IMG/VR virus record: IMGVR_UViG_3300028580_000125
Coordinates: 1 to 64,000 of that record
Reading direction: 5' to 3' (one strand)
Source of the DNA: a virus
Lineage: Duplodnaviria; Caudoviricetes
Length of the DNA: 64,000 nucleotides
Part shown: positions 1,403 through 56,898 of the stretch, one piece after another
How the letters are laid out: each line of letters begins with the position of its first letter
Position numbering within the stretch: position 1 is the stretch's first letter
Notes under the pieces: generated by a model
Databases searched by the model: none
What the model saw: only the letters and a program-made list of their open reading frames with translations
Told to the model about the DNA's origin: nothing
Program-made: the position numbers and the translations under genes

Positions 1403-1629
1403 TATGCTACCTCCTCATAATTCTCTATGGCTGCATCGGGGTGCTTCTTTTTCCATCTGAAATTCCACGACCTGATAGCCGCAGACCTTGAGCGATTATT
1501 TCCAACCCAGTATGTGACGGGCACGCACCGGCATCCTGTCCTGAAGCATCCGATTGAGATCAAACTGCCTGTCCCTGCGACGGTCTTTGCAGGGCGACCA
1601 CATTCTGCGCACGGTTCAAGGTCTGGCAT
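1402..1629 (-). CDS. Lar-family (restriction alleviation) zinc-ribbon protein
   Basis: LEPCAECG...C...C...AAIRSWN pattern typical of Lar-like proteins; overlaps both neighbouring genes. Confidence 0.6.
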   Translation of the reverse strand: MPDLEPCAECGRPAKTVAGTGSLISIGCFRTGCRCVPVTYWVGNNRSRSAAIRSWNFRWKKKHPDAAIENYEEVA

Positions 1630-2518: not shown

Positions 2519-2934
2519 TTTGCCTTACCCCAGAAAGCCCTGCGCGCATCAGCTATCAGGCCGTCAAAGACATCCTCGGCAGCAGCAACGCTGTCTTCGT
2601 TCGAGCCGTATTGCTCGTAGGCTTGTTGAGCTTCCCGCATGTGCTTGGCGGCATCCATAACCCGTTGGAGGGCCAGCGCCGCCCCGGCCGCCTGAAACTG
2701 CCAGGCGATCAGGGCGGTGCGCTGTGAATCTTCGAATGGGCGATTATTCCATGCAGATATGCTTTTGGCGCTTGCCTCCACCTGCGTCTTTCCGGACCGT
2801 AAAAAATAGGACTCAGCAATATCATCATTTACACATTGGCAAGAGACTGAAGCTAAGTATTCGCTTTCAGTATACCGACTTTCATTCAATGTGGGCATGA
2901 CCCCGCAAAACGGGCACGGTTTCAGTTCTGGCAT
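2515..2934 (-). CDS. Lar-family restriction alleviation protein with C-terminal extension
   Basis: MPELKPCPFCG...CQC...AWNNR signature; ATG at 2934. Confidence 0.7.
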   Translation of the reverse strand: MPELKPCPFCGVMPTLNESRYTESEYLASVSCQCVNDDIAESYFLRSGKTQVEASAKSISAWNNRPFEDSQRTALIAWQFQAAGAALALQRVMDAAKHMREAQQAYEQYGSNEDSVAAAEDVFDGLIADARRAFWGKAK

Positions 2935-2936
2935 GG

Positions 2937-3353
2937 CTATTTGCCCTCCACTGACTTTCGGGCGGCTTCTTTCCATTCTTCTGCCGTAGCTTTGTTGCAG
3001 TGGATAATTGTACACACCGCAACGCTACATCTAGGATTCGGCCCTTTGTCCTCGCAGTGTTCTGCACACCGCCCCGCCAGCCAATCCACCATCTTTTGCA
3101 GCCGTGCGTTCTCGGCCTCGGCATCAGCCAGTTTCGCCTTGAGGTCGGGAATGATTTCGGTGCAAGCCTGATACACCGCAGAGAAATTTGCGCGAGTTTC
3201 TTGGACTGAGCCATCAAGCAATAACTCGGTTACCTCCAAGGCATTGAGCAGCCTCAGAATACGTTCATCTTCTTCGCTGGGCGTGCCGCACTCGTCTGAG
3301 GCTTCAAAGCGCCACAGGTCGCGTTCTTCCTTGGATATTTCAACGGTGCTCAT
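2937..3353 (-). CDS. Hypothetical phage protein (coiled coil, Cys-rich C-terminus)
   Basis: 138-aa ORF packed in the operon; start overlaps the upstream stop; AAGGAG RBS. Confidence 0.6.
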   Translation of the reverse strand: MSTVEISKEERDLWRFEASDECGTPSEEDERILRLLNALEVTELLLDGSVQETRANFSAVYQACTEIIPDLKAKLADAEAENARLQKMVDWLAGRCAEHCEDKGPNPRCSVAVCTIIHCNKATAEEWKEAARKSVEGK

Positions 3354-34454: not shown

Positions 34455-34539
34455 ATACTGATCAGGCTGACCCTGAATTGATGCCGCTATTTCATAGCTG
34501 AGGCCAGTGGCCCCGGCTTCAACAAGCAACGGAGTTCAT

Positions 34540-38046: not shown

Positions 38047-38207
38047 TATAGCCCACAAGCCAGAAGGCGAATGCCCAAGGGTATTCATCCAGTGCTTTAT
38101 TTGGGGCCGCTGTCCTTCTCGGTAAGCCGGGAAAAGAACAAAACCGTGGCAGGCGGCAAGTAGCTGCTGCAAAAGCGGCCTGCCACACCCTCAAGGGGTA
38201 TGAACGT

Positions 38208-39257
38208 ATGCCAAAGACAATCAGGGACATCTGGCCGCGCATAACCTGCTTCGACAATCTCGTTGCTGCCTGGGAGGATGCACGGCGCGGAAAGAGGTTT
38301 CTTCCGTCTGTCCTCAAATTCAGCGGCAGCGTTGAAGAGAATCTACTCGATATTCAAGGCAGACTCCTCCATAGGACTTGGCGGCCTGGCCCATGGCGCG
38401 AGTTCATATCCAACGATCCAAAACCACGCCTCATTCAAGCCCCGCAGTTTGGGGATCGCGTTGTGCACCATGCGCTCGTGCGGGTTATAGGCCCGGCATT
38501 TGAGCGCAGATTCATCAATGATAGCTACGCTTGCCGCAAGGGGCTTGGTAATTTGTCGGCCAGTGACCGGCTTACTGATTTTCTCAGGGCTTCAACGTCT
38601 GAAACGAGAAAGTCTGGGCGTAAAATTTACGCTCTCAAGGCCGATGTGCGGAAGTATTTCCCGAACATTGACCACGACATCCTCCTTGGCGTTTTGAAGC
38701 GCACAGTGGGCGACGAGGGCGCGTTATGGCTCATAGAGAAAATTGTCAAAGACAATGGATTTGAGCAGCGCGGCCTACCTATCGGCGCACTGACAAGCCA
38801 ACTTTTCGCAAACGCCTACCTGGACGTTCTGGATCACTACGTCAAGGACGAGCTCGGCGTTCGTTTCTACGTCAGGTATATGGATGATTTCATCATCTTG
38901 CATACCGACAAGCGCCACCTTCACGATCTCCAAACACTTATCGGCTCTGTTCTTTGGGAGCGGTTAAAGCTTCAGTTCAACCCTAAGACGAGCATCTTCC
39001 CTGCGTCGCACGGAATTGACTTCGCCGGGTATCGCCACTGGGTATCGTACCGCCTCCCGCGAAAGCGAAATATCAAGCGGACTCGCAGAAAATTCAAAGA
39101 GATCAGGAAGCTTTATGCCGAAGGAAGGATGGACGTGGCGCAGGTAAGGTCAAGGGTCGCCTCTTTTGTTGGATACACAAAGCACTGCAAGGCTTCGAGA
39201 ACCGTAAAGGGAGTTCTCGACGAATTAGTTTTGCAGCGCGGTGGAGGTGCAGAATGA
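38208..39257 (+). CDS. DGR reverse transcriptase (bRT-like)
   Basis: KPRLIQAP.F.DRVVHHA, KADVRKYFPNIDH, GLPIGALTSQLFAN (DGR-type SQ), YVRYMDDF, GIDFAGY; intact 349 aa. Confidence 0.96.
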   Translation: MPKTIRDIWPRITCFDNLVAAWEDARRGKRFLPSVLKFSGSVEENLLDIQGRLLHRTWRPGPWREFISNDPKPRLIQAPQFGDRVVHHALVRVIGPAFERRFINDSYACRKGLGNLSASDRLTDFLRASTSETRKSGRKIYALKADVRKYFPNIDHDILLGVLKRTVGDEGALWLIEKIVKDNGFEQRGLPIGALTSQLFANAYLDVLDHYVKDELGVRFYVRYMDDFIILHTDKRHLHDLQTLIGSVLWERLKLQFNPKTSIFPASHGIDFAGYRHWVSYRLPRKRNIKRTRRKFKEIRKLYAEGRMDVAQVRSRVASFVGYTKHCKASRTVKGVLDELVLQRGGGAE

Positions 39258-39655
39258 TTTTTTACGGGCTTCACTTTGTCGGTGACGACAAAGTTCCAGT
39301 TCAAGTGCGGATAAGCACCAGCAATCAGCAGATATGGGCGCGGTCAGCACCCAATGGCGAATGGACTGAATGGCGCAGGCTTGACGTAATACGAAATTTG
39401 GACGGCACCCTGGCAGAAGAAGTGACAGAGGCAACGCACGCAAAATCAGCTGACGCAGCGGGAAGGCTCAAGAACCAAGTGAAGATCACGTTCTCGGGTG
39501 ATGTTTCTGGAAGCGTGAGCTTCGATGGATCTGCAAGCGTTGCGTGTGCATTGTCAATTGCAGGCCTTGGCTCATTGAGCAGTCGTATCTCAAGCCTTGA
39601 AGACAGAATCAACAACCTCGGAACTGGCAGCAATACCAACTACGGATCAAGCTAA
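39254..39655 (+). CDS. Short tail-fibre-like protein
   Basis: IWARSAPNGEWTEWRRL knob-like motif and ITFSGDVSGSVSFDGSA fibre repeat. Confidence 0.6.
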   Translation: MIFYGLHFVGDDKVPVQVRISTSNQQIWARSAPNGEWTEWRRLDVIRNLDGTLAEEVTEATHAKSADAAGRLKNQVKITFSGDVSGSVSFDGSASVACALSIAGLGSLSSRISSLEDRINNLGTGSNTNYGSS

Positions 39656-41439
39656 TGGCCACTATCACAATACCAACGTTTGGCGGCGAGATACCCCGCA
39701 CGGCCCCAAGGCTGCTTGAGGACACACAGGCATCCGTTGCCGTTAACTGCCAATTGCAACGCGGAGCCCTTGAAGCCTTGCGTGGCCCGGTGGAGGTCGC
39801 AGGCTTGAGCGCCAGTTCTAAAACAATCTTCAAGCATGCCCAGGACGGTTGGCTGTCATGGCCCGGCGCAGTCGATGTGGTCAAGTCTGCCGTAACGGAC
39901 ATCTCTGGTGAAACCCCTCTTGGTCATCTTTTTATAACCGGCGACAGGGCTTACCCGACGCAATACATGAGTGGTGGCAAGATACACCGCCTCGGCATTC
40001 CAAGGCCTGGCAAGGCGCCATCTGTGGCCGTAACCAAGGGCGCGGCAGATGCTACCGTCGCCTGTTATGCCTTTGGCGCAAACTCAGAATCCGAAATACC
40101 GCCACGTTACGGGTATGAAGACACCCTTTCGACCGTTCAAGAAGACAACGTGAGCGTGGCTGTTACGGCTGAAACAGTTGAGGACACAACATCGACGGAT
40201 AGCGGCATAGCCCGTTCATCCGCTTACTGCTACACGATTGTCCAATCCCTTGCAGACGGGATTTTCCAGCAAGAATCTGCGCCGTCACCGGCGTCTGAAG
40301 TTGTTGATGTGCTTGATGGGGACGGCGTGACCATCAGCGATTTTGAAATTCCAGAGCTTGAAGGTCTGGAAATTTCCCATATCCGCATTTACCGCACGGT
40401 ATCCGGCACAACGACGAGCGAGTTTCATTTCCTAGTTGAGCTTCCACTGCCCGTCACATCCCATGTGGACACGGTAAATGACGTGGACATCTCCACTGAC
40501 GTTATGGCCACAACGACATGGGACGCGATACCCGATGACGCGCGCGGCCTTATCAAGACTGACAACGGCATCTACGCGGCATTTCGCGGGAATGAGCTTC
40601 TTATTTCTGAACCGTTCTATGGCTATGTCTTCCCAGAGAGCTACCGCCTGACAACCGAGGACCCCATTGTGGCCCTTGGGCATGTCGATGGCACGATTGT
40701 CGTGCTGACCACCGGGCGGCCCTACCTGGCAACAGGCTCAGAACCTGAAAGCCTGCAATTCACTCACCTTCCCATTGAACAAAGTTGTGTGTCAGCGGGA
40801 AGCGTCGGCAGCCTGCCTGGCGGCGTTGTGTATGCAAGCCCTGATGGCCTCATGCTGTTCACCAGCAGCGACCAGAGCCTTCTTACTGCTCAGACCTTCA
40901 CCCGCGACCAATGGCAAGCAATGCACCCTGAGAACCTTATGGGAACTGTGCATGACGGGCGGTATGTCGCTTTCTTTTCTGGGACGAATACGGGGATGCT
41001 TATCAGCGTCGGCGCAAAGGATTTGGTGCGCGTTGAACTCCCAGAAGATTGGAAGGTCCGCGCCGTTTACCACCATTCAGAGGACGATGCCGTTTACCTG
41101 GCCGTGGACACCAAAGAAGGGAGCCAAATCTACCAGCTAGAGGCTGGCGCGCCCATGACATACACATGGCGCTCAAAGCCCTTCTTCACTTCCTCGCTCC
41201 TGTGCATGTCCGTTATCCGTATTGAAGGTGATTTTTCAGCCGACGCTTCTGTTCGGGCATCCTTGTTTGGCCCAAATGAAAATAGGCCTCGTGCGCGCAT
41301 GAAGGTTTCTGACAGCAGGGCGAAACGCCTTCCAACTGGCCGTGCTGAAAAAGTATGGAGCCTAGAGCTCACTGGGACTGCAACCGCCTATGAAGTTCGG
41401 ATGGGCGGGAGTGTTGAGGGGGTTGAATATGGCAACTGA
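39655..41439 (+). CDS. Tail nozzle/stabilisation protein (podoviral)
   Basis: FGGEIPR..P.LL, ES.PSPAS, IRIYRT, QSCVS..S, V.YASPDGL, YTWRSKPF. Confidence 0.75.
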   Translation: MATITIPTFGGEIPRTAPRLLEDTQASVAVNCQLQRGALEALRGPVEVAGLSASSKTIFKHAQDGWLSWPGAVDVVKSAVTDISGETPLGHLFITGDRAYPTQYMSGGKIHRLGIPRPGKAPSVAVTKGAADATVACYAFGANSESEIPPRYGYEDTLSTVQEDNVSVAVTAETVEDTTSTDSGIARSSAYCYTIVQSLADGIFQQESAPSPASEVVDVLDGDGVTISDFEIPELEGLEISHIRIYRTVSGTTTSEFHFLVELPLPVTSHVDTVNDVDISTDVMATTTWDAIPDDARGLIKTDNGIYAAFRGNELLISEPFYGYVFPESYRLTTEDPIVALGHVDGTIVVLTTGRPYLATGSEPESLQFTHLPIEQSCVSAGSVGSLPGGVVYASPDGLMLFTSSDQSLLTAQTFTRDQWQAMHPENLMGTVHDGRYVAFFSGTNTGMLISVGAKDLVRVELPEDWKVRAVYHHSEDDAVYLAVDTKEGSQIYQLEAGAPMTYTWRSKPFFTSSLLCMSVIRIEGDFSADASVRASLFGPNENRPRARMKVSDSRAKRLPTGRAEKVWSLELTGTATAYEVRMGGSVEGVEYGN

Positions 41440-45954: not shown

Positions 45955-48900
45955 ATGCCCAAACAAAAGGCCCCACGGCCTACGAAGACCAATACAGGCG
46001 ATTACCTGCTTGATTTCGACGGGACAGATTTCAGCCAGTTCGGCGGCCAACAGGCGCAGCAGCAGGAAGAAGAACCTGGACTTATGAGCAAGATTGGCAG
46101 TTCTGCCCAGGCAATTGCTGAAGGTGCAACCATGCTGCCGGGCCAGATCGCTGATACGCTCAGGGATGCCTACCATGGCGGCGATGTGGATGTTACCGAT
46201 ACTGATGCCATTCGCGCGCGCCAGGCACGCGAGCAAGAGCGCGCAGACTACGGTAAAAAGTATGATGGCAAAGCCTTTGAGGGCGTAACCGATGCCATGA
46301 ATTCCATGGGCTATTCCATGGGAACAATGGGTGCAAGCCTCGGCGCTGCGGCCCTGGCTTCCCCTGCCGGGCCGATTGCCGCTGGCGCAGCAGGCATGGC
46401 CGCCTCTGGCGCCATGGCATACAGGGCAACAAAGCAGCAGTTTTTGCAGCAAATGCTTGGCGAGACGGAAAAGGTTCTTGGCCGCCTGCCAACACAGGAT
46501 GAGTGGGACAAGATCGCCACAGAGTTTGACGGCGAGGCAACGCGCTACGGTGCATGGGAAGCAGGCCCGGAAGCCCTGAGCAACCTCATTATGGCAAAAA
46601 TTCTCGGCCCGCTTGGAAAGGGCCTGTTGCGCGGCAGCGTGGGCCAGGGCATCAAGAGGATTGGCGGCCTGTATGGTGAAGAGCTTGCCACAGAAACAGC
46701 AACCCAGATGGGACAAGGCCAAGAAGAGGCCAATGTGGGCTTGCGCGACACAGCGCCGGGCGTCTGGGATGCGTTCAAGGAAATCGGCCCTGCTACGTTC
46801 TGGCAGACCACGCTCATGGCTGGCGGCAAGAAAGGTGCAGACATGCTTGCCAACCGCATGCGCGCACGTTCGCAACAGGTTGAAAATAATGTCGACCAGA
46901 CGCAGCAACAGGGGCAAGGCACAACGGGACTGACGAACCAAGCCGCATTGCCAATGGCGCAGGGGATATTTGCCTTGCCGCAGGGCGACGGCTCAATTCC
47001 CATGGGCAGCACAGATACGGGCCGGGGCCCCATTGCCGCAGGCGTTGTAGCTGGCCAGCAGCCAAAGCCTTTTCTCAGCGACGCTGACCATGCCGATACT
47101 GAGGCCTTTGTGCGTGCCTTTGAAGAGCGCGAGCGAAACAGGGATGACGAGGAAGCCCTTATCGAGTACGGCCAGCGTCAGGCCCGCTCGCCTGCTCAGC
47201 TTGCACTTGACCAGGGCGAAAACGTCGACCTGCTATCGCTTCCGCAGGGTAATGCGGCCATGGCCATGGGGACCGAAGACACCGGGCGCGGCCCGATTGC
47301 CCCGCCAACTGACTATGCAGGTCAGCCCATTGCGACCCCATATACGCCACGCCCCGCCCTTCCTGAACAGACTTCGCAATCTGCGGGCATGGGCCAGTGG
47401 GCTGGCGGGCGCTCGCAGCTTGCCTACGGGCCGAAGTCTGAACCGCAGATGATGCAGGGCTTGGGCATCATGTCGCAGCAGGGAGCACCAGTTCAGCCCC
47501 AGGCAATGCCCACCTCGGCACAAATCAACAATACACAGGCCGCGCCCCGTTCGGACACAACAGCCGCAGCTAATGCCCTTGGCATGCCCTCGCCGCAGGC
47601 TGTTCCACAGGAGGCCATGGCCCCGCAGAGGGCACAGGCTTTGCCCCCAATAATGCAGGGCATAGGCGCTGCGCCTGCGCAGCCAACACCCGCCCCACAG
47701 CAAGCGTTTACCAGCCAGCCGCAGCCAGAACAAAATTCAAGAGGTCCGTGGCTTGAGGTGGTTCATATTGGCGATTCTGCCCCTAAAGCAAAGCCTCGGC
47801 CGCAACAGAGTCAGCCTGCAGGGCGTGCAGATGACTCGCGCCCAATTGGAAAGAACAGCCGCGGGCAGCAAGTGTTCGAGGACAAAAATGGAGTGCGCTC
47901 TTATGCTGACGGCGGCGTGCGAGTTTCGCAGAGCGTTGGTGTTATCCCCGGCCATGGCATAACGTTTGATGGCCCTGACGCGCTGTATAAGAGCGGAAAG
48001 CAGGAGTACCTGACCAACGACGAGGTTAAAAGCCTTTCTGGTGGCACAAGTGAGCCTGAGAGCAAAAAGCCAAGCCGCATAGAGCTCATTCGCCAACTCC
48101 CCAAAGAAGAGCAGGCTGATGCCCGCAAGCTTCCAAACTCAAAGCTGTTGGAGCGAGTTCGCCAGCTTTCAGAGGTCAATACTGCTTCCGAAGATCAGCC
48201 GGGCGTGGTAGAATCTAACCATGCCAAGGAGGGCGAACATGCAGAAGCAAACGAAGGAAGAACGCGCGGAAATGAAGGAAAAGCTGAACCAGGTGTACGC
48301 AACCCTGACGAAGCCGTTGGAAACCCAGCTGATGGATCACATGAAGAAGTACACGCCGAACCAGGTGAAGGAATGGCTGACGGACGACGGGCCGAAGGCG
48401 CTCGCGGACTTCATTCAGGAACAGGTAGCGAGCGCGGAAAGCACGCGGGACGATACGGCGAAGAAGCTGATCGAAAAGGGGATGAGCGAGGGCGAAGCGT
48501 GGCCGATGGCGCGCGAAGTGGCGATGCAGGACTTTTGGCCACAAGCGGAACCCGGGCGCGAGGGGTAAAAGACTTTCGCATTTCCCCCGATGACCACATC
48601 GGAGAAGGTGGAAAGGTCGCCAAATTCAACGACAACCTTTCTGCCATTCGCACGCTCAAGGAAATTGAGCAGTCTGGCCGCCCAGCTACCGAAGACGAAC
48701 AGAGAACCCTTGCCCGGTATGTTGGCTGGGGTGGCCTTCCAGAAGTGTTTGCCGAAGGCGGCAAGGCCGACCCTGCGCTGACCCGCAGGCGCGCCGAATT
48801 GCGCGAACTTCTTTCGCCAAAAGAATTTGAAGAAGCGCGCAGATCCACAACGAACGCTCACTACACTTCGCCTGAAATCATCATGGCAATGTGGGATGCC

Positions 48901-51900
48901 ATTAAGCGTATGGGCTTTAAGGGCGGCAAAGTTCTTGAGCCTTCTATGGGCGTTGGCAACTTCATTGGCTTGATGCCTAATGACGTATACAAAAAGTCCC
49001 ACGTCACCGGCATTGAGCTTGATGGCATTACTGCGCGGATCGCAAAGCTGCTGTATCCGAAACAGACCATTCTTTCGCAGGGATTTGAAACTGCCAAACT
49101 GCGTGACGGCAGCTTTGACCTGGCCATATCCAACGTGCCATTCGGCGACTACAAGCTGCACGACACCCGCTACGCGAAGCACAATCTCTTCATCCACGAC
49201 TATTTCATCACTCGCGCGCTCGACCTTGTGCGCCCGGGCGGCGTGGTAGCCTTTATCACCACTTCCGGCTCACTGAACAGCGGGCGCTCAATGAATATGC
49301 GCCAGTTGGCCGCCGACAAGGCGCGCCTGCTCGGTGCTATTCGCCTGCCAGGCACATCATTCAGCAAGAATGCCCTCACGGACGTGACAACGGACATTCT
49401 GTTTTTGCAACGCCTTGGTGAGGGTGAAACCAACACCAGCCCCGCATGGAAGGATGTGGTTGATACCGACGTTGTTTCGGAGAAGACGGGCAAGCCGTTG
49501 CGGAACAACGAATACTATTCTGCGCACCCAGAAATGATGCTGGGGCAGCTGGCAGACGATAAGCTCTACCCTGGCAGGACGGCGCTTAAGGATGACGGCA
49601 GGGACATGCCGGCCGCTTTGGGTGACGCGCTGAAAACGCTCCCAGAAGGAGTGTTTTCTGGTGAAGGTCTGCGCCATGAGGATCAGAAAGCAACTGCCAA
49701 TGTGCAGATGCAGGACGCCAAAGAGGGCCAGCTGCTGCTGGATGGCAAAGGCAATATCGTTCAGGTGTCTGACGGGGAACTGAAAAACTATCCGGCTGAC
49801 GGAAAGAAAGCTGCGCGCATTGCCGGGATGATCGGGGTTCGTGATGCCCTGCGTTCAAACCTGCGGGCGCAGATGAACGGAGACGAAGACAGCATTGCGC
49901 ACTCCCGCACGGCTCTCAACGACGCTTACGACGCATTTGTGAAGCAGCACGGCTTCTTAAATGACAATGCCAACCGCCTGGCCATGTCAGAAGACCCCGA
50001 CTTTCCCCTTTTGCAAGCCCTGGAAAACAACTACACCAAGGGAAAAAACGGTGCGCCTTCCAAGGCTGAGAAGGCCGACATCTTCACCCGCCGGACAATC
50101 GCTGAACCCAAGATTATTGAGCACGCAGAGACGCCGCAGGATGCCCTGCACGCACAGCTTGCGGATATAGGCCGGGTTGATATTCCAGGCATTGCGAAAA
50201 TGACCGGCCTTTCTGAGCAGGCCGTTATTGACGATTTACACGGAACCATCTTTCAAAACCCCAAGGGAACCCGGTGGGAAACCGCTGACGACTATCTCTC
50301 TGGGAACGTCCGCAAAAAACTTGCTGAGGCAAAGAAGGCCGCCGAAAAGGACGTGAAGTTCAAGGAGAACGTTAAGGCTCTAGAAGCCGTGCAGCCGCAG
50401 GATGTGCCGCCACAAGACATCCGCGTTGACCTGGGCGCCGGGTGGGTTCCCTCGGCGCGCGTTGAAGAATTTGCGGCAAAAGTCCTTGGCATATCGCCTT
50501 CAGACGTATCGGCACGCTATTCAAAAGAACTGGCGCAATGGTCGCTGAACGTCAAAAAAAGCGGCCTAAGCAATGAGTACGGGACGCCAGAGCGTAGCGC
50601 ACTGGAACTGCTCAATGATTCGCTCAATCTGAAACAGGCAAAAATTCAGATCGACACGCCGGAAGGTGTGATCGTGAACAAGGAAGCCACCATTGCCGCC
50701 CGCGAGGCGCAACGCAAGTTGCATGAAGAATTCTCGCGCTGGATTCTGGAGGATGAAAAGCGCGCCGCTGAATTGGCCCGCATCTACAACGACACTTACA
50801 ATGCCATGCGCCTTTATGAGGCTGATGGCTCGCACCTTGTGTTGCCCGGCATTGCCGATACCATAGAGGGGAAACCCTTTGCCCTGCGCCCGCACCAGAA
50901 AAGCGCCGTGTGGAGGATTATCCAGAAGGGCAACACGCTGGTTGCCCATGCTGTTGGTGCTGGCAAAACGTATGAAATGATTGCCGCAGGCATGGAAATG
51001 AAGCGTCTTGGAATGATCAACAAGCCGCTTTACGTCGTTCCCAACCATATGCTTGAGCAGTGGTCGCGCGAGTTTTTGCAGGCCTACCCTGCCGCCAATA
51101 TCCTCGTTGCATCCAAGGCTGACCTTCAAAAGGAGAAGCGCCGCAAGTTTGTGAGCCGCATTGCCACTGGCAACTGGGATGCCGTGGTCATGACCCACTC
51201 TTCTTTTGGCCGCATTCCTATTTCAGTGGAGCGGAAAGAAAAACATATCCGCGATCAGATTGAGCAGTATGAATCTGCCCTGCGCGCCGAGAACGAAGAA
51301 AAGAAGGCTGGGCGCGGGCGTTCTGAAAACAGGCTTGTTAAGCAACTTGAAAAGCAGAAAATGCGCCTTGAAGAAAAACTTCGCACGCTGCTTGAAGACG
51401 GAAAAAATGCCAAAGATAACCAGGTGAATTTTGAAGAACTTGGCGTGGACTTCATGTTTGTCGATGAGGCCCATAACTTCAAGAATCTGAGCTACGTCAC
51501 GCGGATGCAGCGCATTGCCGGTCTGCCCAATAGTCATTCCCAGCGCGCTGAGGACATGCTTCTGAAGACGCAGTACCTCGACGAATTGCACCCTGGCAGG
51601 AGCCTTGTGTTTGCCACCGGCACGCCAATCTCCAATACCGTGGCCGAAATGTACACCATGACCAGGTATGTAGCTCCGCATCTGCTGCGCGAATCCGGCC
51701 TTGAAATGTGTGATTCTTGGGCGCGCCAGTTTGGCCGCACTGTCACCGGCATGGAAATATCGCCGGATGGCCGGAACTTCCGCGAAAATACCCGCTTCTC
51801 GCGTTTCACAAACGTGCCGGAACTTTTGACCATGTTCCGCAGCTTTGCCGACGTGAAGACCAAGGAAGACCTCGACCTGCCGCTTCCTGACCTCAAGGGC

Positions 51901-54900
51901 GGCAAGCCTGAAGTTGTGTCTGTAAAGCCGTCCGAATCCCTCACGAATTATGTCGATGAACTTGTGGCCAGGGCTGAGAAGATACGTGGCGGTTCCGTTG
52001 ATCCGCGCAAAGACAACATGCTCAAGGTGACAAGCGAGGGTCGCCTTGCTGCCCTGGACATGCGCCTGATTGACGACACGCTCCCTGCTGACCCCAATGG
52101 CAAGGTAGCGCGCGCGACTGACAACATCTACGACATCTGGAAATCCACATCGAAGGACAGACTCGCCCAGATGGTTTTCTGCGACCTCTCTGTGCCATCA
52201 AAGCAGAGGGCCAAAGGCCTGAAGGAGGCAGAAAACCAAGATCAGGACGGCGAAGCCGCCAAGCCTGAGGCAAGTCCTGATGATTTGCTGGCTGCCGCAT
52301 CTCGCGGGTCATTCAGCGTCTACGACGAGATCAAGAACAACCTCGTCGACATGGGTGTTCCAGCAGACGAAATTGCCTTTATCCATGACTTCAACGGCGA
52401 TAAGGCAAAGGCCCAGCTTTTTAAAGACGTGCGGGCGGGCAAGGTGCGGGTGCTCCTTGGTTCGACCGCTAAGATGGGAGAAGGAACGAACGTGCAGGAG
52501 CGACTTGTGGCTCTGCACCATCTGGACGCGCCCTGGAAGCCATCAGCCGTCGAACAGCGTGAAGGGCGAATTCTGCGCCAAGGCAACAAGAACAAAGAGG
52601 TGCAGATATACACCTATGTGACCGAGAACAGCTTTGATGCCTATATGTGGCAATTGCTGGAATCGAAGGCGCGCTTTGTGGCCACATCCATGCGCAGCGG
52701 TGTCACCGAGCGAGACATGGACGATATCAGCGTTACCGAACTTTCCGCTGCAGAAGCCAAGGCCGCCGCAACTGGAGATAAGCGCATCCTTGAAAAAGTT
52801 GGCCTGGACAACACCATATCTCGGTTGACCGTTCTGAAGCGTGAATTTGATCGCAACCAGTGGGCCAAGGGGCGCGAGGTAGCCGAATCTAAATCCCGCC
52901 TCGCCACGCTTACAGACATACTTGCTGCCGAAAAGAAAGATTTATCCCTGGCGGCAACGCTGACCGGGAAGAACTTTGCGCTCACCCTGCGCGGCAAAGA
53001 ATACACGAAGTCCACGGATGCAGCCGCGGCTATAATCAGCATTGTTTCTGACAAAAGCATCCCCAGCGGCGCAGTCATCGGCAAGGCTGGCGGCTTTGAT
53101 ATTACCATGTGGCGCAAGGCAACGGGCTATGAGTTTTCCCTGTCTGGGGAATCCTCGTTCAGTACCGGCGACACAACATCATCCGAAGGAGCCGTGACGC
53201 GCATCGTCAAGGGAGCCTCGCCAGAGAACAGCGCCAGCAGGATTGCGGCAACCGAAGAGGCCATTGCCAAAACAAACCGTAGACTTGATGGGGCAACGAA
53301 GTGGCTTACGAACAACAAGTCTTTCGACAGGCAAGAAGAACTGGAAACGGCCTTGGCCAGAAGCCAGGAGCTCGATGACGAGCTTGGTCTGTCTGCATCC
53401 AAGGATGCCAGCGTGATCAGCAATGAAGCTGACAGCGACAATGATCTTATGGCCTCAAAGGTGAACCCTGGCGAATACCTCCCCCCCGTTGACGGGAAAA
53501 AGGGCATGCGCCTTGAAGACGTACAGACCGTTGCTGACAAGATCGGGAAGCTGGCAAAAAATGCGGCAGCGTCGCGTGTCGTGCAAGGTTTTGACGAACT
53601 GCCATATTCGATCAGGGAGCGTTATTCGGACGCTAAAAACAGCGTCGAGGGCGTTTTTGACCCGCGTTCTGGCGTGGTCTGGATGGTGGCCGACAACCTC
53701 AGTGATCCAACGCGCGCGGCCGAGGTGTGGGCCCATGAACAGATTGTTCACCATGGCCTGCGCGGGCTGCTTCCGGCTGATGCCAGAAGGCGTGTGCTTA
53801 ACCAGCTTTGGCTTGGTGCTGGCGGCATGAAGAACGGCATGGTGAAGGACATTGCCAGCCGTTACGGCTTGGCCCCCACCAGAAGCTTGCAAGACCGTCA
53901 AACGGTTATGGAAGAAGTCATTGCTGCCCTGGCAGAAAAGAAGGGGCAGGGGCTTCTTGAGCGCGCCGAAGGCAACCTATGGCGCAGGGTTGTTTCTGCC
54001 CTGTACCGTGCATGGAACAGCCTCGTTCGCGCCGTTTCTGGGCGAGAAGGGGCTATGAACATGGACAACATTGATGCCTTGCTCTCCGCACTCGGAAGAC
54101 ATGTGATTGATGGGGAATCTTCCGGCATCACCCAGAAGGCCGGGCCGTTTGAACAGGCGGTTGCGCCAGCGTCGATGTCAACTGAGGGTGACGGCGGCGT
54201 TGAATTGGCTTCCCTTTCACCGAAAGACATTCTCGGCCTTACTGGCATAAAGGCCGCAAAGATTGCTGACGCACCAGAGATTCACCATATGTTCAAGAAG
54301 GATGACTTGAGCTTGATGCAGAGCATTTTTAATCTGCCGCATTGGATTGCCAAAAAAGCGCCGGCCTTTGCCAAAGTCTATGAACGGCAGTTGCAACGCT
54401 TGGATGATCGGTCATCCGCGCTCAAGGAAAGCCTTGAAACCGCGCCGAGCATTTTCGGCAAGGACAGACTCAAGCCTGCCGACATGGACAGCCTGAAAAA
54501 GCTGCTTTGGGAGCATGAGGGCCGGGACGCATGGCAGATTGACGCTTCCGGCGTTGACAAGTTTGTCACCAAGGAAACTCTGGCCAACGGGCGAGAATTA
54601 ATTTCTGTGAACCCTGAATTTTATCGGGAGTACAAGAAATGGCTCGGCGGCCTGGAAGGCACAAAGGCTGCCAAGGACGCAATGCTTGAAATTCGCAAGA
54701 GCCTTGATGAGGACTTGGTGCGGGCTCATAACCGCATGGCTGCAATGTCTGAAATGAGCGACGACGCGATCAGGGAGTTCCGGCAAAGCATTGGCCATGT
54801 GCCGAACTACTTTCCTCACCACCGATATGGGAACTACTTTATTCAAGCGAAGATCGGTGATGAGGTTGTTTTTAGGCAGCACTTTGATGCACTGAACACC

Positions 54901-56898
54901 CAAGCGGCAAAACAGCGCGCCGCCATGATCGCTGCTGAGCAAAAAGAAAACTACCCTGGCGCAAGCTGGACGGATGGAAAGAATGACCGTCTGCCAGATG
55001 AAATTCTTGGCGCACCGATTGACACCGAGGCAATGGAGCAAATCATCCGTGCGGCAACATCGAAGATTGCGGACAAGGAACGTGCCGCCGAAATCAATGA
55101 ACTGCTCACGTCTGGCGTTGCCGATGTGCTTAAGGCGCGTGGCTGGGGCGCGCACGGCATACAACGTAAAGGCATTCCAGGCTTTGAGCGTGAGGACATC
55201 ACGCGGGTGCTCTACGACTACAAATCCGGCCTGAATGGCTGGCTTACCAAGATGGAGGCCGCAAAGGATTTCAGCGAGGCGTTGTCGGGCATTGATGCAC
55301 GGCGCACTCCGAACCTTTGGAAGTACACGGCCCAATACGTCAAAGACATGCTGCGCAACTCTGATCGCGTGGACAGGATCACCGGCAATATCAAGTCTGT
55401 TGCCTTTGCCTGGTATCTTGGCGGCTCAATCAAAACTGCGTTTGTGAACGCCACCCAGAACCTTGTAGTGGGTGTGCCGCGCTTGCAGATGGATGTAACC
55501 GGCGGCGGCCGCCTCTGGCTCGATGGTGCGCAAAAAGCAATCATTGACCGGGTGACAGGCAGCAAGGGCAAAGGCCTTTCGGACGAAGAGGCAAAGCTCG
55601 TACATGAACTTTACGGCGAGAGCGTGATCACTGACGCTTTCATGGAAGAAGTGCGCGGGCATTTGCAGGGCTTCACCGGCGCTACGCTCTGGAACAAGTT
55701 CACTAAGGCATTGGGCCTGCCCATGAGCGAAGTTGAACGATTCAACCGGGCCAGTTTGGCCCTGGCCGCATTCCGCGCTGCGCGCAGCGGCAAGCTCAAG
55801 CAGCAGGCAAAAGAGAAGTATGGTGTCAGGGGCGAACAGGCGAATTATGACCAGGCGAAAGAATTTGCCACGGATGTAGTGCGAGATGCCCACTTTGTGT
55901 ACGGCAAGTCCAACCTGCCAGAGTTCATGCGCAGCAATACTGCCGGGCGGTCAATGGCTTCGCTCTATACGTTCCGCACGTTCACACACAACATGATTTC
56001 CATGTGGGCATGGGCGCTGGAATCGCAAGGCAAAGAAGGCGCTGCGTTTGTGGCGAAAAGCATAGGGGCCACAATGGCCCTTGGCGGCGTTACCGCCCTG
56101 CCCTTCTACGCAACCATTATGGCCTTGTGCCAGGCTGCCACCGGAGACGATGACGATTGGACAGAAAAACTCCGCTCCTGGCTGCCCAAGAACAACTTGC
56201 TGCGGGATGCTGTGTGCTACGGCACGCCAGCCATGGCCGGGGTAAACATTGGCGGCTCGCTCAAGATGGAGACGCCTATTACTGGCGGCCTTGCCAAGGG
56301 TAAGACGCCCAAAGAAATACTTACCCAGAGCATTGGGGATATAATCGGCGTTCCATACGATTTGCTGATCGAAAAGCCCTCCAAGATGATTGAGGCTCAC
56401 CGCAAGGGGAATACGTGGAGAATGATCGAAGAGGCCATGCCGGTTGCATTCAAGAGCGGCATGCAGGCTTGGCGGCTGTACACCCATGGGCAAACAACCA
56501 TGTCTGGACGGCCAATAAATGACCCTGGAACGCCAGGTGCGCGCAAGCTTTCGTCAAGTGAGGCCATAGGCAAGGCTCTTGGATTCCAGCCAGTCAGTAG
56601 CACAAAGAGCTATGATGCGTATGCCGCATCGCAGCATTCGAAACAGGTGCGCGACGACAAGCTTGATGACCTTACGGCCATGGCGCTGAAAACAGTCGAT
56701 ACTGGGGACCCGGCGGGCAGAAAGGAAATGCTCAAGGACCTCAAAAATTGGAACAGTCGCATGAAGGAAGAGGGCAAGCCCAATATGCTCATTGCACCCA
56801 AAGAAGTTATTCGCAGGGTGAAGGCACGCAGGCGCGAGAACAGGCCGACGCCAAAGAACCTGCGCGAAAAGGCACGGCTGCAGGCGTCTTGGAACTAA
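45955..56898 (+). CDS. Giant DarB-like polyvalent protein (N6-adenine MTase + SNF2 helicase + zincin-like motif + PLxRFG-like C-terminal region)
   Basis: LARYVGWGG, VLEPSMGVGNF, ISNVPF (MTase); AHAVGAGKT, VDEAHNFKN, ATGTPISN, QREGRILRQGN (SF2); AHEQIVHHGL; YFPHHRYGNY. Confidence 0.9.
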   Translation: MPKQKAPRPTKTNTGDYLLDFDGTDFSQFGGQQAQQQEEEPGLMSKIGSSAQAIAEGATMLPGQIADTLRDAYHGGDVDVTDTDAIRARQAREQERADYGKKYDGKAFEGVTDAMNSMGYSMGTMGASLGAAALASPAGPIAAGAAGMAASGAMAYRATKQQFLQQMLGETEKVLGRLPTQDEWDKIATEFDGEATRYGAWEAGPEALSNLIMAKILGPLGKGLLRGSVGQGIKRIGGLYGEELATETATQMGQGQEEANVGLRDTAPGVWDAFKEIGPATFWQTTLMAGGKKGADMLANRMRARSQQVENNVDQTQQQGQGTTGLTNQAALPMAQGIFALPQGDGSIPMGSTDTGRGPIAAGVVAGQQPKPFLSDADHADTEAFVRAFEERERNRDDEEALIEYGQRQARSPAQLALDQGENVDLLSLPQGNAAMAMGTEDTGRGPIAPPTDYAGQPIATPYTPRPALPEQTSQSAGMGQWAGGRSQLAYGPKSEPQMMQGLGIMSQQGAPVQPQAMPTSAQINNTQAAPRSDTTAAANALGMPSPQAVPQEAMAPQRAQALPPIMQGIGAAPAQPTPAPQQAFTSQPQPEQNSRGPWLEVVHIGDSAPKAKPRPQQSQPAGRADDSRPIGKNSRGQQVFEDKNGVRSYADGGVRVSQSVGVIPGHGITFDGPDALYKSGKQEYLTNDEVKSLSGGTSEPESKKPSRIELIRQLPKEEQADARKLPNSKLLERVRQLSEVNTASEDQPGVVESNHAKEGEHAEANEGRTRGNEGKAEPGVRNPDEAVGNPADGSHEEVHAEPGEGMADGRRAEGARGLHSGTGSERGKHAGRYGEEADRKGDERGRSVADGARSGDAGLLATSGTRARGVKDFRISPDDHIGEGGKVAKFNDNLSAIRTLKEIEQSGRPATEDEQRTLARYVGWGGLPEVFAEGGKADPALTRRRAELRELLSPKEFEEARRSTTNAHYTSPEIIMAMWDAIKRMGFKGGKVLEPSMGVGNFIGLMPNDVYKKSHVTGIELDGITARIAKLLYPKQTILSQGFETAKLRDGSFDLAISNVPFGDYKLHDTRYAKHNLFIHDYFITRALDLVRPGGVVAFITTSGSLNSGRSMNMRQLAADKARLLGAIRLPGTSFSKNALTDVTTDILFLQRLGEGETNTSPAWKDVVDTDVVSEKTGKPLRNNEYYSAHPEMMLGQLADDKLYPGRTALKDDGRDMPAALGDALKTLPEGVFSGEGLRHEDQKATANVQMQDAKEGQLLLDGKGNIVQVSDGELKNYPADGKKAARIAGMIGVRDALRSNLRAQMNGDEDSIAHSRTALNDAYDAFVKQHGFLNDNANRLAMSEDPDFPLLQALENNYTKGKNGAPSKAEKADIFTRRTIAEPKIIEHAETPQDALHAQLADIGRVDIPGIAKMTGLSEQAVIDDLHGTIFQNPKGTRWETADDYLSGNVRKKLAEAKKAAEKDVKFKENVKALEAVQPQDVPPQDIRVDLGAGWVPSARVEEFAAKVLGISPSDVSARYSKELAQWSLNVKKSGLSNEYGTPERSALELLNDSLNLKQAKIQIDTPEGVIVNKEATIAAREAQRKLHEEFSRWILEDEKRAAELARIYNDTYNAMRLYEADGSHLVLPGIADTIEGKPFALRPHQKSAVWRIIQKGNTLVAHAVGAGKTYEMIAAGMEMKRLGMINKPLYVVPNHMLEQWSREFLQAYPAANILVASKADLQKEKRRKFVSRIATGNWDAVVMTHSSFGRIPISVERKEKHIRDQIEQYESALRAENEEKKAGRGRSENRLVKQLEKQKMRLEEKLRTLLEDGKNAKDNQVNFEELGVDFMFVDEAHNFKNLSYVTRMQRIAGLPNSHSQRAEDMLLKTQYLDELHPGRSLVFATGTPISNTVAEMYTMTRYVAPHLLRESGLEMCDSWARQFGRTVTGMEISPDGRNFRENTRFSRFTNVPELLTMFRSFADVKTKEDLDLPLPDLKGGKPEVVSVKPSESLTNYVDELVARAEKIRGGSVDPRKDNMLKVTSEGRLAALDMRLIDDTLPADPNGKVARATDNIYDIWKSTSKDRLAQMVFCDLSVPSKQRAKGLKEAENQDQDGEAAKPEASPDDLLAAASRGSFSVYDEIKNNLVDMGVPADEIAFIHDFNGDKAKAQLFKDVRAGKVRVLLGSTAKMGEGTNVQERLVALHHLDAPWKPSAVEQREGRILRQGNKNKEVQIYTYVTENSFDAYMWQLLESKARFVATSMRSGVTERDMDDISVTELSAAEAKAAATGDKRILEKVGLDNTISRLTVLKREFDRNQWAKGREVAESKSRLATLTDILAAEKKDLSLAATLTGKNFALTLRGKEYTKSTDAAAAIISIVSDKSIPSGAVIGKAGGFDITMWRKATGYEFSLSGESSFSTGDTTSSEGAVTRIVKGASPENSASRIAATEEAIAKTNRRLDGATKWLTNNKSFDRQEELETALARSQELDDELGLSASKDASVISNEADSDNDLMASKVNPGEYLPPVDGKKGMRLEDVQTVADKIGKLAKNAAASRVVQGFDELPYSIRERYSDAKNSVEGVFDPRSGVVWMVADNLSDPTRAAEVWAHEQIVHHGLRGLLPADARRRVLNQLWLGAGGMKNGMVKDIASRYGLAPTRSLQDRQTVMEEVIAALAEKKGQGLLERAEGNLWRRVVSALYRAWNSLVRAVSGREGAMNMDNIDALLSALGRHVIDGESSGITQKAGPFEQAVAPASMSTEGDGGVELASLSPKDILGLTGIKAAKIADAPEIHHMFKKDDLSLMQSIFNLPHWIAKKAPAFAKVYERQLQRLDDRSSALKESLETAPSIFGKDRLKPADMDSLKKLLWEHEGRDAWQIDASGVDKFVTKETLANGRELISVNPEFYREYKKWLGGLEGTKAAKDAMLEIRKSLDEDLVRAHNRMAAMSEMSDDAIREFRQSIGHVPNYFPHHRYGNYFIQAKIGDEVVFRQHFDALNTQAAKQRAAMIAAEQKENYPGASWTDGKNDRLPDEILGAPIDTEAMEQIIRAATSKIADKERAAEINELLTSGVADVLKARGWGAHGIQRKGIPGFEREDITRVLYDYKSGLNGWLTKMEAAKDFSEALSGIDARRTPNLWKYTAQYVKDMLRNSDRVDRITGNIKSVAFAWYLGGSIKTAFVNATQNLVVGVPRLQMDVTGGGRLWLDGAQKAIIDRVTGSKGKGLSDEEAKLVHELYGESVITDAFMEEVRGHLQGFTGATLWNKFTKALGLPMSEVERFNRASLALAAFRAARSGKLKQQAKEKYGVRGEQANYDQAKEFATDVVRDAHFVYGKSNLPEFMRSNTAGRSMASLYTFRTFTHNMISMWAWALESQGKEGAAFVAKSIGATMALGGVTALPFYATIMALCQAATGDDDDWTEKLRSWLPKNNLLRDAVCYGTPAMAGVNIGGSLKMETPITGGLAKGKTPKEILTQSIGDIIGVPYDLLIEKPSKMIEAHRKGNTWRMIEEAMPVAFKSGMQAWRLYTHGQTTMSGRPINDPGTPGARKLSSSEAIGKALGFQPVSSTKSYDAYAASQHSKQVRDDKLDDLTAMALKTVDTGDPAGRKEMLKDLKNWNSRMKEEGKPNMLIAPKEVIRRVKARRRENRPTPKNLREKARLQASWN
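48239..48568 (+). CDS. Nested +1-frame gene inside the DarB-like ORF; DUF1896/TnpV-like helical protein (109 aa)
   Basis: AAGGAGG at 48226-48232, 6 nt before the ATG; extended -10 TGGTAGAAT at 48206-48214; protein-like helical sequence, whereas the host frame here is low-complexity. Confidence 0.65.
   Translation: MQKQTKEERAEMKEKLNQVYATLTKPLETQLMDHMKKYTPNQVKEWLTDDGPKALADFIQEQVASAESTRDDTAKKLIEKGMSEGEAWPMAREVAMQDFWPQAEPGREG

What the first reader, a model, noticed from the sequence alone, without database searches (positions are those of the whole stretch)
48206..48568. Overprinted gene with its own promoter and RBS hidden inside the 11-kb DarB-like ORF
Seen: a 109-codon ORF in the +1 frame (MQKQTKEERAEMKEKL...FIQEQVASAES...GMSEGEAWPMAREVAMQDFW) with a perfect AAGGAGG 6 nt upstream and an extended -10 (TGGTAGAAT). 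The host frame over the same bases reads as a G/E/R/A-rich linker. The nested ORF stops right where the methylase N-domain begins. Known (recalled): in conjugative elements a small DUF1896-type gene lies just upstream of DarB-like methylase-helicases. Inference: a two-gene module was captured into an ejection protein by read-through in another frame, keeping the small gene separately expressible. It may be a partner, chaperone or inhibitor of the enzyme, including during lysogeny.
Basis: partly seen in the sequence, partly recalled or inferred. Interest (0 to 1): 0.75.

Follow-up and report, generated by a model that had tools for sequence, protein, structure and literature searches.

The report
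Small gene nested in giant phage gene
A real, unannotated 109-residue TnpV-like protein gene is written in a second reading frame inside the floppy linker of this temperate phage's 3,647-residue DarB-like anti-restriction virion protein gene, and the same two-frame layout recurs, unannotated, in at least a dozen cultured phages.

Summary
ORF 48239-48568 (109 codons) lies in the +1 frame of the giant ORF 45955-56898, with AAGGAGG 6 nt before its ATG.

It is not a chance ORF:
- This is the only place in the 11-kb gene where codon usage favours the +1 frame.
- Among 13 close relatives, polymorphisms fall on the third codon positions of the nested frame. They switch back to the host frame exactly at both borders.
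- dN/dS is 0.19 in the nested frame and 1.11 in the host frame.
- The host frame still stays open, although chance predicts about 5 stops (P = 0.002). So both frames are selected.

The same nesting, just ahead of the LPD36-methylase-SNF2 module, occurs in L031 and L030. It also occurs in Atu_ph08, PBC5, Stean, LASTA, VvAW1, Itty13, Mwe-JY07 and other phages.

The protein joins this family at hhalign probability 93%. The family gives sub-threshold hits to Pfam TnpV. It also matches a free-standing TnpV gene that directly precedes a methylase-helicase gene on an Acaryochloris plasmid. DUF1896 holds the same position in Bacteroidota, but homology to it is only borderline.

The proposed promoter is unsupported, and translation was not shown. 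This scan found the same TnpV-in-giant-gene nesting earlier on other DNA. I found no published description.

The parts
45955..56898 (+). Giant host ORF (3647 codons): polyvalent DarB-like virion/ejection protein gene at the end of the internal-virion-protein block
   Evidence: ORF list. Pfam matches to SNF2-rel_dom, ResIII, Helicase_C, Eco57I and Methyltransf_11. An internal virion protein (phrog_511) lies at 39655-41436 upstream. tblastn matches annotated DarB-like / N-6 methylase / SNF2 genes in 2031 plasmid records.
45955..48237 (+). N-terminal module of the giant protein (761 aa), no family match. It is not homologous to the N-terminal 1138 aa of the L030 giant protein.
   Evidence: Pfam and PHROGs give nothing. 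BLASTP of the two giant proteins aligns only from residue 781 onward.
48206..48214 (+). TGGTAGAAT, an extended -10-like motif. Function not supported.
   Evidence: Read. Invariant in close relatives, and TGGTAAAAT in L031. Not called by the promoter scan and absent upstream of the nested ORF in eight other phages.
48226..48232 (+). Shine-Dalgarno AAGGAGG, 6 nt before the nested ATG
   Evidence: The SD and ATG are invariant in 13 relatives, while the 6-nt spacer varies at 4 positions. The same AAGGAGG-6nt-ATG is present in L031, whose nested protein is only 42% identical. SD-like GGAG/GAGG lies 6-10 nt upstream in the other phages.
48239..48568 (+). Nested gene, +1 frame, 109 codons plus TAA: a TnpV-like five-helix protein (P0001)
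   Evidence: Translation. Codon scan. Polymorphism by codon position. dN/dS 0.19. AF2 model pLDDT 85, pTM 0.71. hhalign to the nested family plus free-standing TnpV: 93%, E 3e-7, with null maximum 18.9 against score 40.4.
48238..48573 (+). Host-frame reading of the same bases: a G/E/R/A-rich low-complexity linker. It is kept open but its sequence is not conserved.
   Evidence: Translation. Host-frame dN/dS 1.11. No T at nested position 3 before any of the 38 AA/AG/GA-starting codons, and P(open) 0.0024.
48574..48760 (+). LPD36 helical domain of the methylase-helicase module, containing the GxGU motif YVGWGG
   Evidence: Host-frame translation. Definition of LPD36 in PMC5512222. Alignment to the N-termini of free-standing Bacteroidota methylase-helicases.
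48937..49315 (+). Adenine methyltransferase core
   Evidence: Pfam Methyltransf_11 (20.1 bits) and Eco57I (24.4 bits), both just under their cut-offs. 33-44% identity to annotated N-6 DNA methylases.
50761..52585 (+). SNF2/ResIII helicase core and Helicase_C
   Evidence: Pfam SNF2-rel_dom 41.4 bits, ResIII 40.4 bits, Helicase_C 25.4 bits.

Best explanation
Window 48239-48568 is a true dual-coding segment.

- Nested gene: ribosomes that start at the internal AAGGAGG-6nt-ATG site read the +1 frame and make a free 109-residue, five-helix, TnpV-like protein.
- Host frame: ribosomes translating the giant gene read the same bases as a disordered G/E/R/A-rich tether. This tether joins a 761-residue N-terminal virion module to the LPD36-methylase-SNF2 (DarB-like) module.
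- Origin: the small gene is the phage counterpart of the free-standing small gene (TnpV in Acaryochloris, DUF1896 in Bacteroidota) that directly precedes stand-alone methylase-helicase genes on plasmids and conjugative elements. The likeliest origin is a two-gene cassette joined to an upstream virion gene by read-through in another frame.
- Function: inferred, not shown. The free small protein works with the methylase-helicase module as a partner or chaperone-like factor and has to be made as a separate chain.
For: Shown for this window:
- It is the only codon-usage frame switch in the 11-kb gene.
- Polymorphisms among 13 relatives follow the nested frame inside 48239-48565 and the host frame on both sides.
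- Ten relatives (L004-L013) encode an identical nested protein, although several (L006, L009-L011) differ in host-frame peptide.
- Against L033, dN/dS is 0.19 in the nested frame and 1.11 in the host frame.
- Host-frame openness has probability 0.0024 here, 0.0001 in L031, 0.005 in L030, 0.009 in Atu_ph08 and 0.028 in Stean.
- The SD and ATG are invariant while the spacer varies.

Shown across relatives:
- The same +1 nesting ahead of LPD36 is present in L031 and L030.
- It is present in Atu_ph08 and Stean, and in VvAW1, Itty13, Mwe-JY07 and LASTA.
- tblastn finds it in 21 records, about 12 phages, always under a giant annotated CDS.
- Within that group the nested proteins score far higher than the host-frame peptides, for example 206 against 87.

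Family assignment:
- hhalign of A1 against the nested group plus free-standing TnpV gives 93%, E 3.2e-7, score 40.4. The shuffle maximum is 18.9.
- Pfam TnpV is the only family hit, in 4 of 13 members at E <= 0.01.
- A free-standing TnpV lies directly upstream of a methylase-helicase gene with an 8-nt overlap.

Fold: AF2 pLDDT 85.

Partner role:
- Synteny supports it.
- Complex prediction gave weak support: score 0.60, best of 3 controls 0.00. The mark was reached by 58 of 80 solved complexes and 2 of 110 mismatched pairs. At 0.60 or under it was reached by only 7 of those 80, and by both of the mismatched pairs that passed. The runs agree in at least 81% of contacts, and partner pLDDT is at least 81.
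Against: - No direct evidence of translation or of a separate transcript. The RNA-library contigs cannot tell.
- The window's own protein gives no Pfam TnpV or DUF1896 hit. The family link is profile-profile only.
- No structural match is significant.
- The function of TnpV itself is unknown.
- In PBC5 as deposited, the N-terminal module is in frame with the TnpV-like segment. A fused form may therefore exist, or that record may carry an indel.
- The complex prediction is weak by the tool's own calibration.
Confidence: 0.8

Rival explanations
1. Programmed +1 ribosomal frameshifting rather than internal initiation. Ribosomes translating the N-terminal module would shift into the nested frame, stimulated by the SD-like sequence as in prfB. 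This would make a truncated N-module-TnpV fusion that ends at the nested stop, alongside the full-length giant protein.
For: In the deposited PBC5 genome, orf33 (2185 aa) is exactly such a fusion. It is the source of the C-terminal 100 positions of phrog_938. An SD-like element upstream of a shift site is a known +1 stimulator (established knowledge of prfB).
Against: - The +1 frame is closed by a stop only 9 codons before the ATG here (TAG 48209-48211). The gap is 5 codons in VvAW1 and 2 in LASTA, which leaves almost no room for a shift site.
- The ATG is conserved in every lineage.
- SD spacing of 6-10 nt fits initiation, not the 3-nt spacing of prfB.
- No slippery motif is visible.
Confidence: 0.06
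2. De novo overprinting. The disordered linker came first, and the nested gene arose later within it, so it is the younger frame. Its resemblance to TnpV and DUF1896 would then be convergent or spurious.
For: - Giant proteins of this kind carry low-complexity linkers before LPD36 that tolerate change.
- Overprinting is the usual origin of viral overlapping genes (PMC8227390, abstract seen).
- The nested codon usage is atypical, with 60% G at position 3.
Against: - The nested protein is well folded in prediction and is the conserved frame.
- It matches a free-standing TnpV gene at the same syntenic position.
- The nested gene travels with the methylase module while the N-terminal modules differ.
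- The G-rich third positions are explained by selection to keep the host frame open.
Confidence: 0.1
3. Chance ORF or assembly artefact. The +1 ORF would be a by-product of a G-rich linker, or of two compensating indel errors, and no separate protein would be made.
For: Nested ORFs of about 100 codons are common in this 56% GC gene. The AAGGAGG count is at chance level for the window.
Against: - Gapless alignments to 15 independent assemblies keep both frames.
- The frame-specific substitution pattern and dN/dS contradict it.
- The arrangement is conserved across cultured phages of eight host genera.
- The predicted fold is confident.
Confidence: 0.03

Closest known systems
TnpV (Pfam PF14198), the small protein of Tn4451-type transposons and other mobile elements. 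Here, specifically, the free-standing 121-aa TnpV gene directly upstream of the methylase-helicase gene on Acaryochloris marina plasmid pREC3.
   Same: - Size of about 100-130 aa, helical.
- Shared motif pattern: W....H/N-W/M-K...P..Y......G.L...AL, with an acidic tail in several members.
- The same position immediately 5' of an LPD36-methylase-SNF2 gene.
   Different: - Here the gene is not free-standing. It is embedded out of frame inside the giant gene.
- The window's copy is too diverged to hit the Pfam model and carries an extra N-terminal helix.
- TnpV has no known function.
DUF1896 (Pfam PF08989; structure 2apl, PG0816) of Bacteroidota conjugative elements
   Same: - A small helical protein gene directly upstream of, and overlapping by 11 nt, giant N-6 methylase/helicase genes.
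- Borderline profile similarity over nested residues 27-98 against DUF1896 16-73.
- 2apl is the top-ranked Foldseek hit, though not significant, with the same residue register.
   Different: - No HMM hit.
- DUF1896 is about 150 aa with a C-terminal half that is absent here.
- The wider nested family shows almost no similarity to it (E 0.03).
- It is free-standing, not nested.
Embedded same-strand overlapping genes of phages, such as Rz1 inside Rz of lambda in the +1 frame (from my own knowledge, not checked here)
   Same: A complete small gene with its own start lies wholly inside a larger gene in the +1 frame, and both frames are functional.
   Different: - The embedded gene appears to be the older, conserved frame.
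- The host frame over it is only a spacer that fuses two modules.
- The two products are not known to form a complex.
DarB of phage P1 and the polyvalent proteins of Iyer et al. 2017 (PMC5512222)
   Same: The host gene has the LPD36-adenine methylase-SWI2/SNF2 module. It lies with virion and ejection genes, as described for phage-type polyvalent proteins.
   Different: That paper contains none of the words 'overlapping', 'frameshift', 'linker' or 'low-complexity'. It does not describe a nested gene ahead of LPD36.

Membership tests
TnpV (PF14198) | Match to the Pfam model at or above the gathering score (27 bits) | tested here: not met
   P0001, P0004 and P0033 give no TnpV hit at E <= 10. Nested relatives score 22.9 bits (L030) and 20.9 bits (Stean), which is significant by E-value but under the cut-off. 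Only the free-standing Acaryochloris protein passes, at 29.5 bits.
TnpV (PF14198) | Profile-level homology to recognised TnpV proteins | tested here: met
   hhalign of A1 against the 9-sequence profile (eight nested proteins plus Acaryochloris TnpV) gives 93.1%, E 3.2e-7, score 40.4. The maximum of 120 column shuffles is 18.9. The nested trio against Acaryochloris TnpV alone gives 68.5%, E 4.6e-5.
TnpV (PF14198) | Small protein encoded on a mobile genetic element | tested here: met
   109 aa, on a 91.6-kb temperate phage record with an integrase.
DUF1896 (PF08989) | Match to the Pfam model (cut-off 25 bits) | tested here: not met
   No match anywhere in the 91.6-kb record in six frames at E <= 10. 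No hit in hmmscan.
DUF1896 (PF08989) | Profile-profile or structural similarity to DUF1896 / 2apl | tested here: inconclusive
   hhalign of A3 against a 9-sequence DUF1896 alignment gives 50.5%, E 1.6e-4, score 30.1, with null maximum 17.0. The wider nested group gives only E 0.03. 2apl has Foldseek E 1.8 and VIA Z 4.2 over 57 residues.
DUF1896 (PF08989) | Position directly upstream of a methylase-helicase gene | tested here: met
   DUF1896 overlaps the start of the giant gene by 11 nt in L035, L037 and L038. The nested stop lies about 11 codons before the homologous start point.
Embedded out-of-frame overlapping gene pair | The small ORF lies wholly inside the larger ORF on the same strand in another frame | tested here: met
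   48239-48568 lies inside 45955-56898, in the +1 frame.
Embedded out-of-frame overlapping gene pair | Both frames maintained by selection | tested here: met
   Nested frame: polymorphism pattern and dN/dS 0.19. Host frame: stop avoidance with P 0.0024, repeated in four other lineages.
Embedded out-of-frame overlapping gene pair | Both products made in the cell | not testable with these tools
   Only Logan contigs of RNA libraries were available. They cover the region but show no starts, strand or level.
DarB-like polyvalent protein (LPD36-MTase-SNF2 module, PMC5512222) | LPD36 helical domain with a GxGU motif N-terminal to the methylase | tested here: met
   YVGWGG follows the helices that begin at GKVAKFNDNLSAIR. 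This stretch aligns to the N-termini of Bacteroidota methylase-helicases, which carry GFGG. Definition read.
DarB-like polyvalent protein (LPD36-MTase-SNF2 module, PMC5512222) | Adenine methylase followed by an SWI2/SNF2-type helicase in one polypeptide | tested here: met
   SNF2-rel_dom 41.4, ResIII 40.4 and Helicase_C 25.4 bits are above their cut-offs. The methylase models are just under theirs (Eco57I 24.4 against 25.3). There is 33-44% identity over 95% of 600 aa to annotated N-6 methylase/SNF2 proteins.

The most novel reading that the evidence does not exclude
The TnpV-like protein is a dedicated free partner of the LPD36-methylase module. It could be a chaperone or an anti-activator that masks the DNA-binding surface, in the manner of small acidic secretion chaperones. 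Writing it out of frame inside the linker would be an evolved way to deliver a separate chain from the same late mRNA at a fixed ratio to a packaged giant protein. If so, TnpV and DUF1896 genes next to methylase-helicase genes would be a general accessory factor for protein-mediated anti-restriction in phages, plasmids and conjugative elements.
Probability: 0.3. Interest if true: 0.8.

Novelty: new variant of a known kind. Interest (0 to 1): 0.66.

Why it matters
1. Annotation. Gene callers forbid nested same-strand genes, so this conserved protein is missing from the annotation of every complete phage genome examined here. It appears only on short metagenome contigs. It also contaminates a PHROG profile labelled 'endolysin'.

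2. Evolution. This is a clean, statistically strong case of dual coding in which the embedded frame is the conserved one. The host frame is merely kept open, which shows how two genes can be fused by out-of-frame read-through without losing the first.

3. Function. TnpV is an orphan family, and this gives it a testable context. It is tied to the DarB-like methylase-helicase module that protects incoming DNA from restriction. Several of the carrier phages are cultured (Agrobacterium, Klebsiella, Pseudomonas, Vibrio, Erwinia), so they can be used for genetics.

Tried and rejected
- Direct homology searches for P0001. PHROGs, Pfam and NCBIfam gave nothing. tblastn against phages gave nothing, and against plasmids only noise. 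IMG/VR and genome contigs pattern scans gave nothing. phmmer against 1.84 billion representatives found only P0033, plus two spurious repeat proteins (saposin-like P0034, TPR-like P0035).
- Apparent relatives in cluster 2 (P0019-P0029, ABC-transporter membrane domain, beside ABC ATPase genes) are not relatives. They are linked through one chimeric 796-bp contig product, P0028.
- Structure searches. Foldseek against PDB and BFVD found nothing at E <= 0.001. VIA second-look Z values were all 5 or less, which is the noise range for helical proteins. The ESM Atlas gave scores of 0.78, at noise level, although rank 3 was a TnpV cluster.
- LPD36 as the identity of the nested protein was rejected. 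LPD36 is in the host frame downstream.
- RNA evidence. Contigs from four metatranscriptome-labelled runs (wastewater and sludge) lie on the nested region and patchily on both flanks. One contig starts at 48236. Contigs cannot show starts, strand or level, and DNA carry-over is possible, so this supports neither a separate transcript nor expression.
- Promoter. The sigma-70 scan does not call a site at 48206-48214. The extended -10-like motif is shared with L031 only. There it could equally reflect the host-frame Val-Val codons.
- The P. fluorescens pG69 small genes upstream of its methylase show no similarity to the nested family.
- L003 diverges from the window after 48425 and was treated as a chimeric or rearranged contig.
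Full report
**The observation**

The giant ORF runs from 45955 to 56898 (3647 codons). In its +1 frame an ATG at 48239 opens 109 codons that end at TAA 48566-48568. AAGGAGG lies at 48226-48232, 6 nt before the ATG, and TGGTAGAAT lies at 48206-48214. Over the same bases the host frame reads as a G/E/R/A-rich low-complexity peptide.

Neither ORF length nor the SD count is unusual by itself. Seven other + strand ORFs of 80 codons or more are nested in the giant gene. AAGGAGG occurs 8 times in the window against 7.7 expected. However, 5 of the 7 + strand copies precede an ATG that opens an ORF of at least 100 codons.

**Is it a gene?**

A codon-usage log-likelihood scan of the whole 11-kb ORF finds one place only, about 48205-48650, where the +1 frame beats the host frame.

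Protein searches found 109-residue products called on short metagenome contigs. I fetched 13 such loci, 92-97% identical in DNA and aligned without gaps. The polymorphism pattern is as follows:

| Region | Polymorphic sites, host codon positions 1/2/3 | Same sites, nested-frame positions 1/2/3 |
|---|---|---|
| 705 bases upstream | 14/7/43 | 7/43/14 |
| 48239-48565 (nested ORF) | 21/6/9 | 6/9/21 |
| 532 bases downstream | 13/7/65 | 7/65/13 |

Ten loci (L004-L013) encode an identical nested protein, although several of them (L006, L009-L011) differ in host-frame peptide. The SD and ATG are invariant, while four of the six spacer bases vary.

Against the most diverged close relative, L033, Nei-Gojobori dN/dS is 0.19 in the nested frame and 1.11 in the host frame. 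The host frame gives 0.22 and 0.06 in the flanks.

**Is the host frame also selected?**

I resampled synonymous codons for the nested protein from the phage's own codon usage. The host frame stays open in only 0.24% of trials, with a mean of 5.2 stops. In reality T occupies 4% of nested third positions, against 22% genome-wide. None of the 38 codons starting with AA, AG or GA is preceded by a T. Both frames are therefore maintained: one for its sequence, the other for being open.

**Deeper relatives**

phmmer against 1.84 billion representatives found one true distant homologue, P0033, at 42% identity and E 1e-11. Its 713-bp contig, L031, shows the same layout:
- A host-like frame is open throughout and ends in the start of the methylase N-domain.
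- The nested ORF is in the +1 frame.
- AAGGAGG-6nt-ATG is present.
- The probability that the host frame is open by chance is 0.0001.

An IMG/VR phage, L030, has a methylase domain 54% identical to this one, but its N-terminal 1138 residues are unrelated to the window's. It shows the same single codon-usage switch just before LPD36, and a 75-codon +1 ORF with an AGGAG site. P(open) there is 0.005.

Atu_ph08 and Stean, two cultured phages found by DNA similarity, show it too. A tblastn search with the Atu_ph08 nested protein found 21 records, about 12 phages:
- Atu_ph08, PBC5, POI1126, VvAW1 and Mwe-JY07.
- Pavtok, PEp14 and Stean.
- LASTA, SJM3, SopranoGao and Itty13.

In every record the match lies under a giant annotated CDS and is never annotated itself. 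In VvAW1, Itty13, Mwe-JY07 and LASTA I verified that the host frame is open across the locus and that the nested ORF is in host frame +1. Within this group the nested proteins are much better conserved than the host-frame peptides from the same bases.

The window clade plus L031 joins this group, together with a free-standing TnpV, at hhalign probability 93%, E 3.2e-7 and score 40.4. The maximum over 120 column shuffles is 18.9. The alignment is A4.

**What the protein is**

AF2 on a 4-sequence alignment gives a confident five-helix model, with pLDDT 85 and pTM 0.71. No structural match is significant.

Pfam TnpV (PF14198) is the only family that any member hits at E <= 0.01. It is hit by 4 of 13 members, and the nested ones score 22.9 and 20.9 bits against a cut-off of 27. 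The window's own copy does not hit it.

The best plasmid match to the window's methylase domain is Acaryochloris pREC3, at 44% identity. There a free-standing 121-residue TnpV gene overlaps the start of the methylase-helicase gene by 8 nt.

The recall is correct as synteny. In B. fragilis and Runella plasmids a DUF1896 gene overlaps the start of the giant methylase-helicase gene by 11 nt. In two Prevotella cases it does not. The free-standing proteins begin at the residue homologous to window nt ~48601, which is 11 codons after the nested stop.

Homology to DUF1896 is only borderline:
- No HMM hit.
- hhalign 50%, E 1.6e-4, with a clean null.
- 2apl, which I confirmed to be DUF1896, is Foldseek's top but non-significant hit, in the same register.
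- The wider nested group gives E 0.03.

**The host gene**

It has the LPD36 GxGU motif, a methylase and an SNF2 helicase. It follows internal-virion-protein genes. It is therefore a phage-type polyvalent DarB-like protein in the sense of PMC5512222. That paper contains none of the words 'overlapping', 'frameshift' or 'linker'.

The record is a 91.6-kb provirus with an integrase. Near-identical DNA occurs in wastewater, bioreactor and landfill metagenomes.

**Mechanism**

Internal initiation is the best reading:
- The ATG is conserved in all lineages.
- SD-like sites lie 6-10 nt upstream.
- The +1 frame is closed by a stop only 2-9 codons before the ATG. This leaves no room for a programmed +1 shift.

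The one exception is the deposited PBC5 sequence. There the N-terminal module is in frame with the TnpV-like segment (orf33, 2185 aa), and the methylase frame opens upstream of it. This is either a natural fused variant or an indel in a 2002 record. It also explains why phrog_938, labelled 'endolysin', matches the nested proteins at its last 100 positions.

The proposed promoter is not supported. RNA-library contigs do not discriminate.

A partner role for the small protein is inferred from conserved adjacency. It is only weakly supported by complex prediction: score 0.60, best control 0.00. By the tool's calibration a pass at this level is more often wrong than right unless the guess was likely beforehand.

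**Earlier scan notes**

After reaching the TnpV reading, I found that this scan had reported the same nesting on other DNA at least seven times. These are AI notes, not publications. My full-text searches for TnpV, DUF1896 and polyvalent proteins found no description of it.

Noticed in passing
L048 (Sinorhizobium phage PBC5, AF448724.1) 1-1809 and 1233-3305: In the deposited PBC5 genome the N-terminal module (orf33, 2185 aa) runs in frame into the TnpV-like segment and stops there. The methylase frame is already open from L048:1233. A frame switch therefore lies upstream of the nested ATG. It could be a natural fused variant or a sequencing indel.
   Followed up: partly
PHROGs family phrog_938 ('endolysin'), profile positions 2084-2185: The last ~100 positions of this 2185-column profile are the nested TnpV-like protein (E 1e-43 for Atu_ph08), evidently because PBC5 orf33 is a member. 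The functional label is misleading for that part.
   Followed up: partly
L050 (Pseudomonas phage Itty13, MW460249.1): The giant + strand frame is open across the whole 3.2-kb locus, yet the record annotates two 'hypothetical protein' CDSs on the opposite strand there. This is probably a mis-annotation of the giant DarB-like gene.
   Followed up: no
Proteins P0019-P0029 and loci L014-L029: A 90%-identity protein cluster mixes the nested protein with an unrelated ABC-transporter membrane domain. The cause is one chimeric 796-bp contig product (P0028) that joins them at a shared MKEKLNQ word. It is a clustering artefact that could mislead context analyses.
   Followed up: yes
window 38052-39254 and 34498-36429: A reverse transcriptase (phrog_1423, E 4e-124) lies next to a tail-fibre gene. 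This is consistent with a diversity-generating retroelement acting on the fibre, as other notes of this scan say.
   Followed up: no
window 76-564 (-): A tyrosine integrase (PF00589, 86.7 bits) at the left end of the record. The element is a temperate phage or provirus.
   Followed up: no
L042 (P. fluorescens plasmid pG69) 1187-1492 and 1501 onward: The tblastn match to LPD36 starts at 1501, but the methylase CDS is annotated from 1822. A 101-aa hypothetical gene ends at 1492. The methylase start is probably mis-called, and another unrelated small gene sits directly upstream.
   Followed up: partly
L003 after window position 48425: This 1182-bp metagenome scaffold matches the window at 97% up to 48425 and then continues with unrelated sequence, cutting the nested ORF to 75 codons. 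It is likely a chimeric assembly.
   Followed up: no
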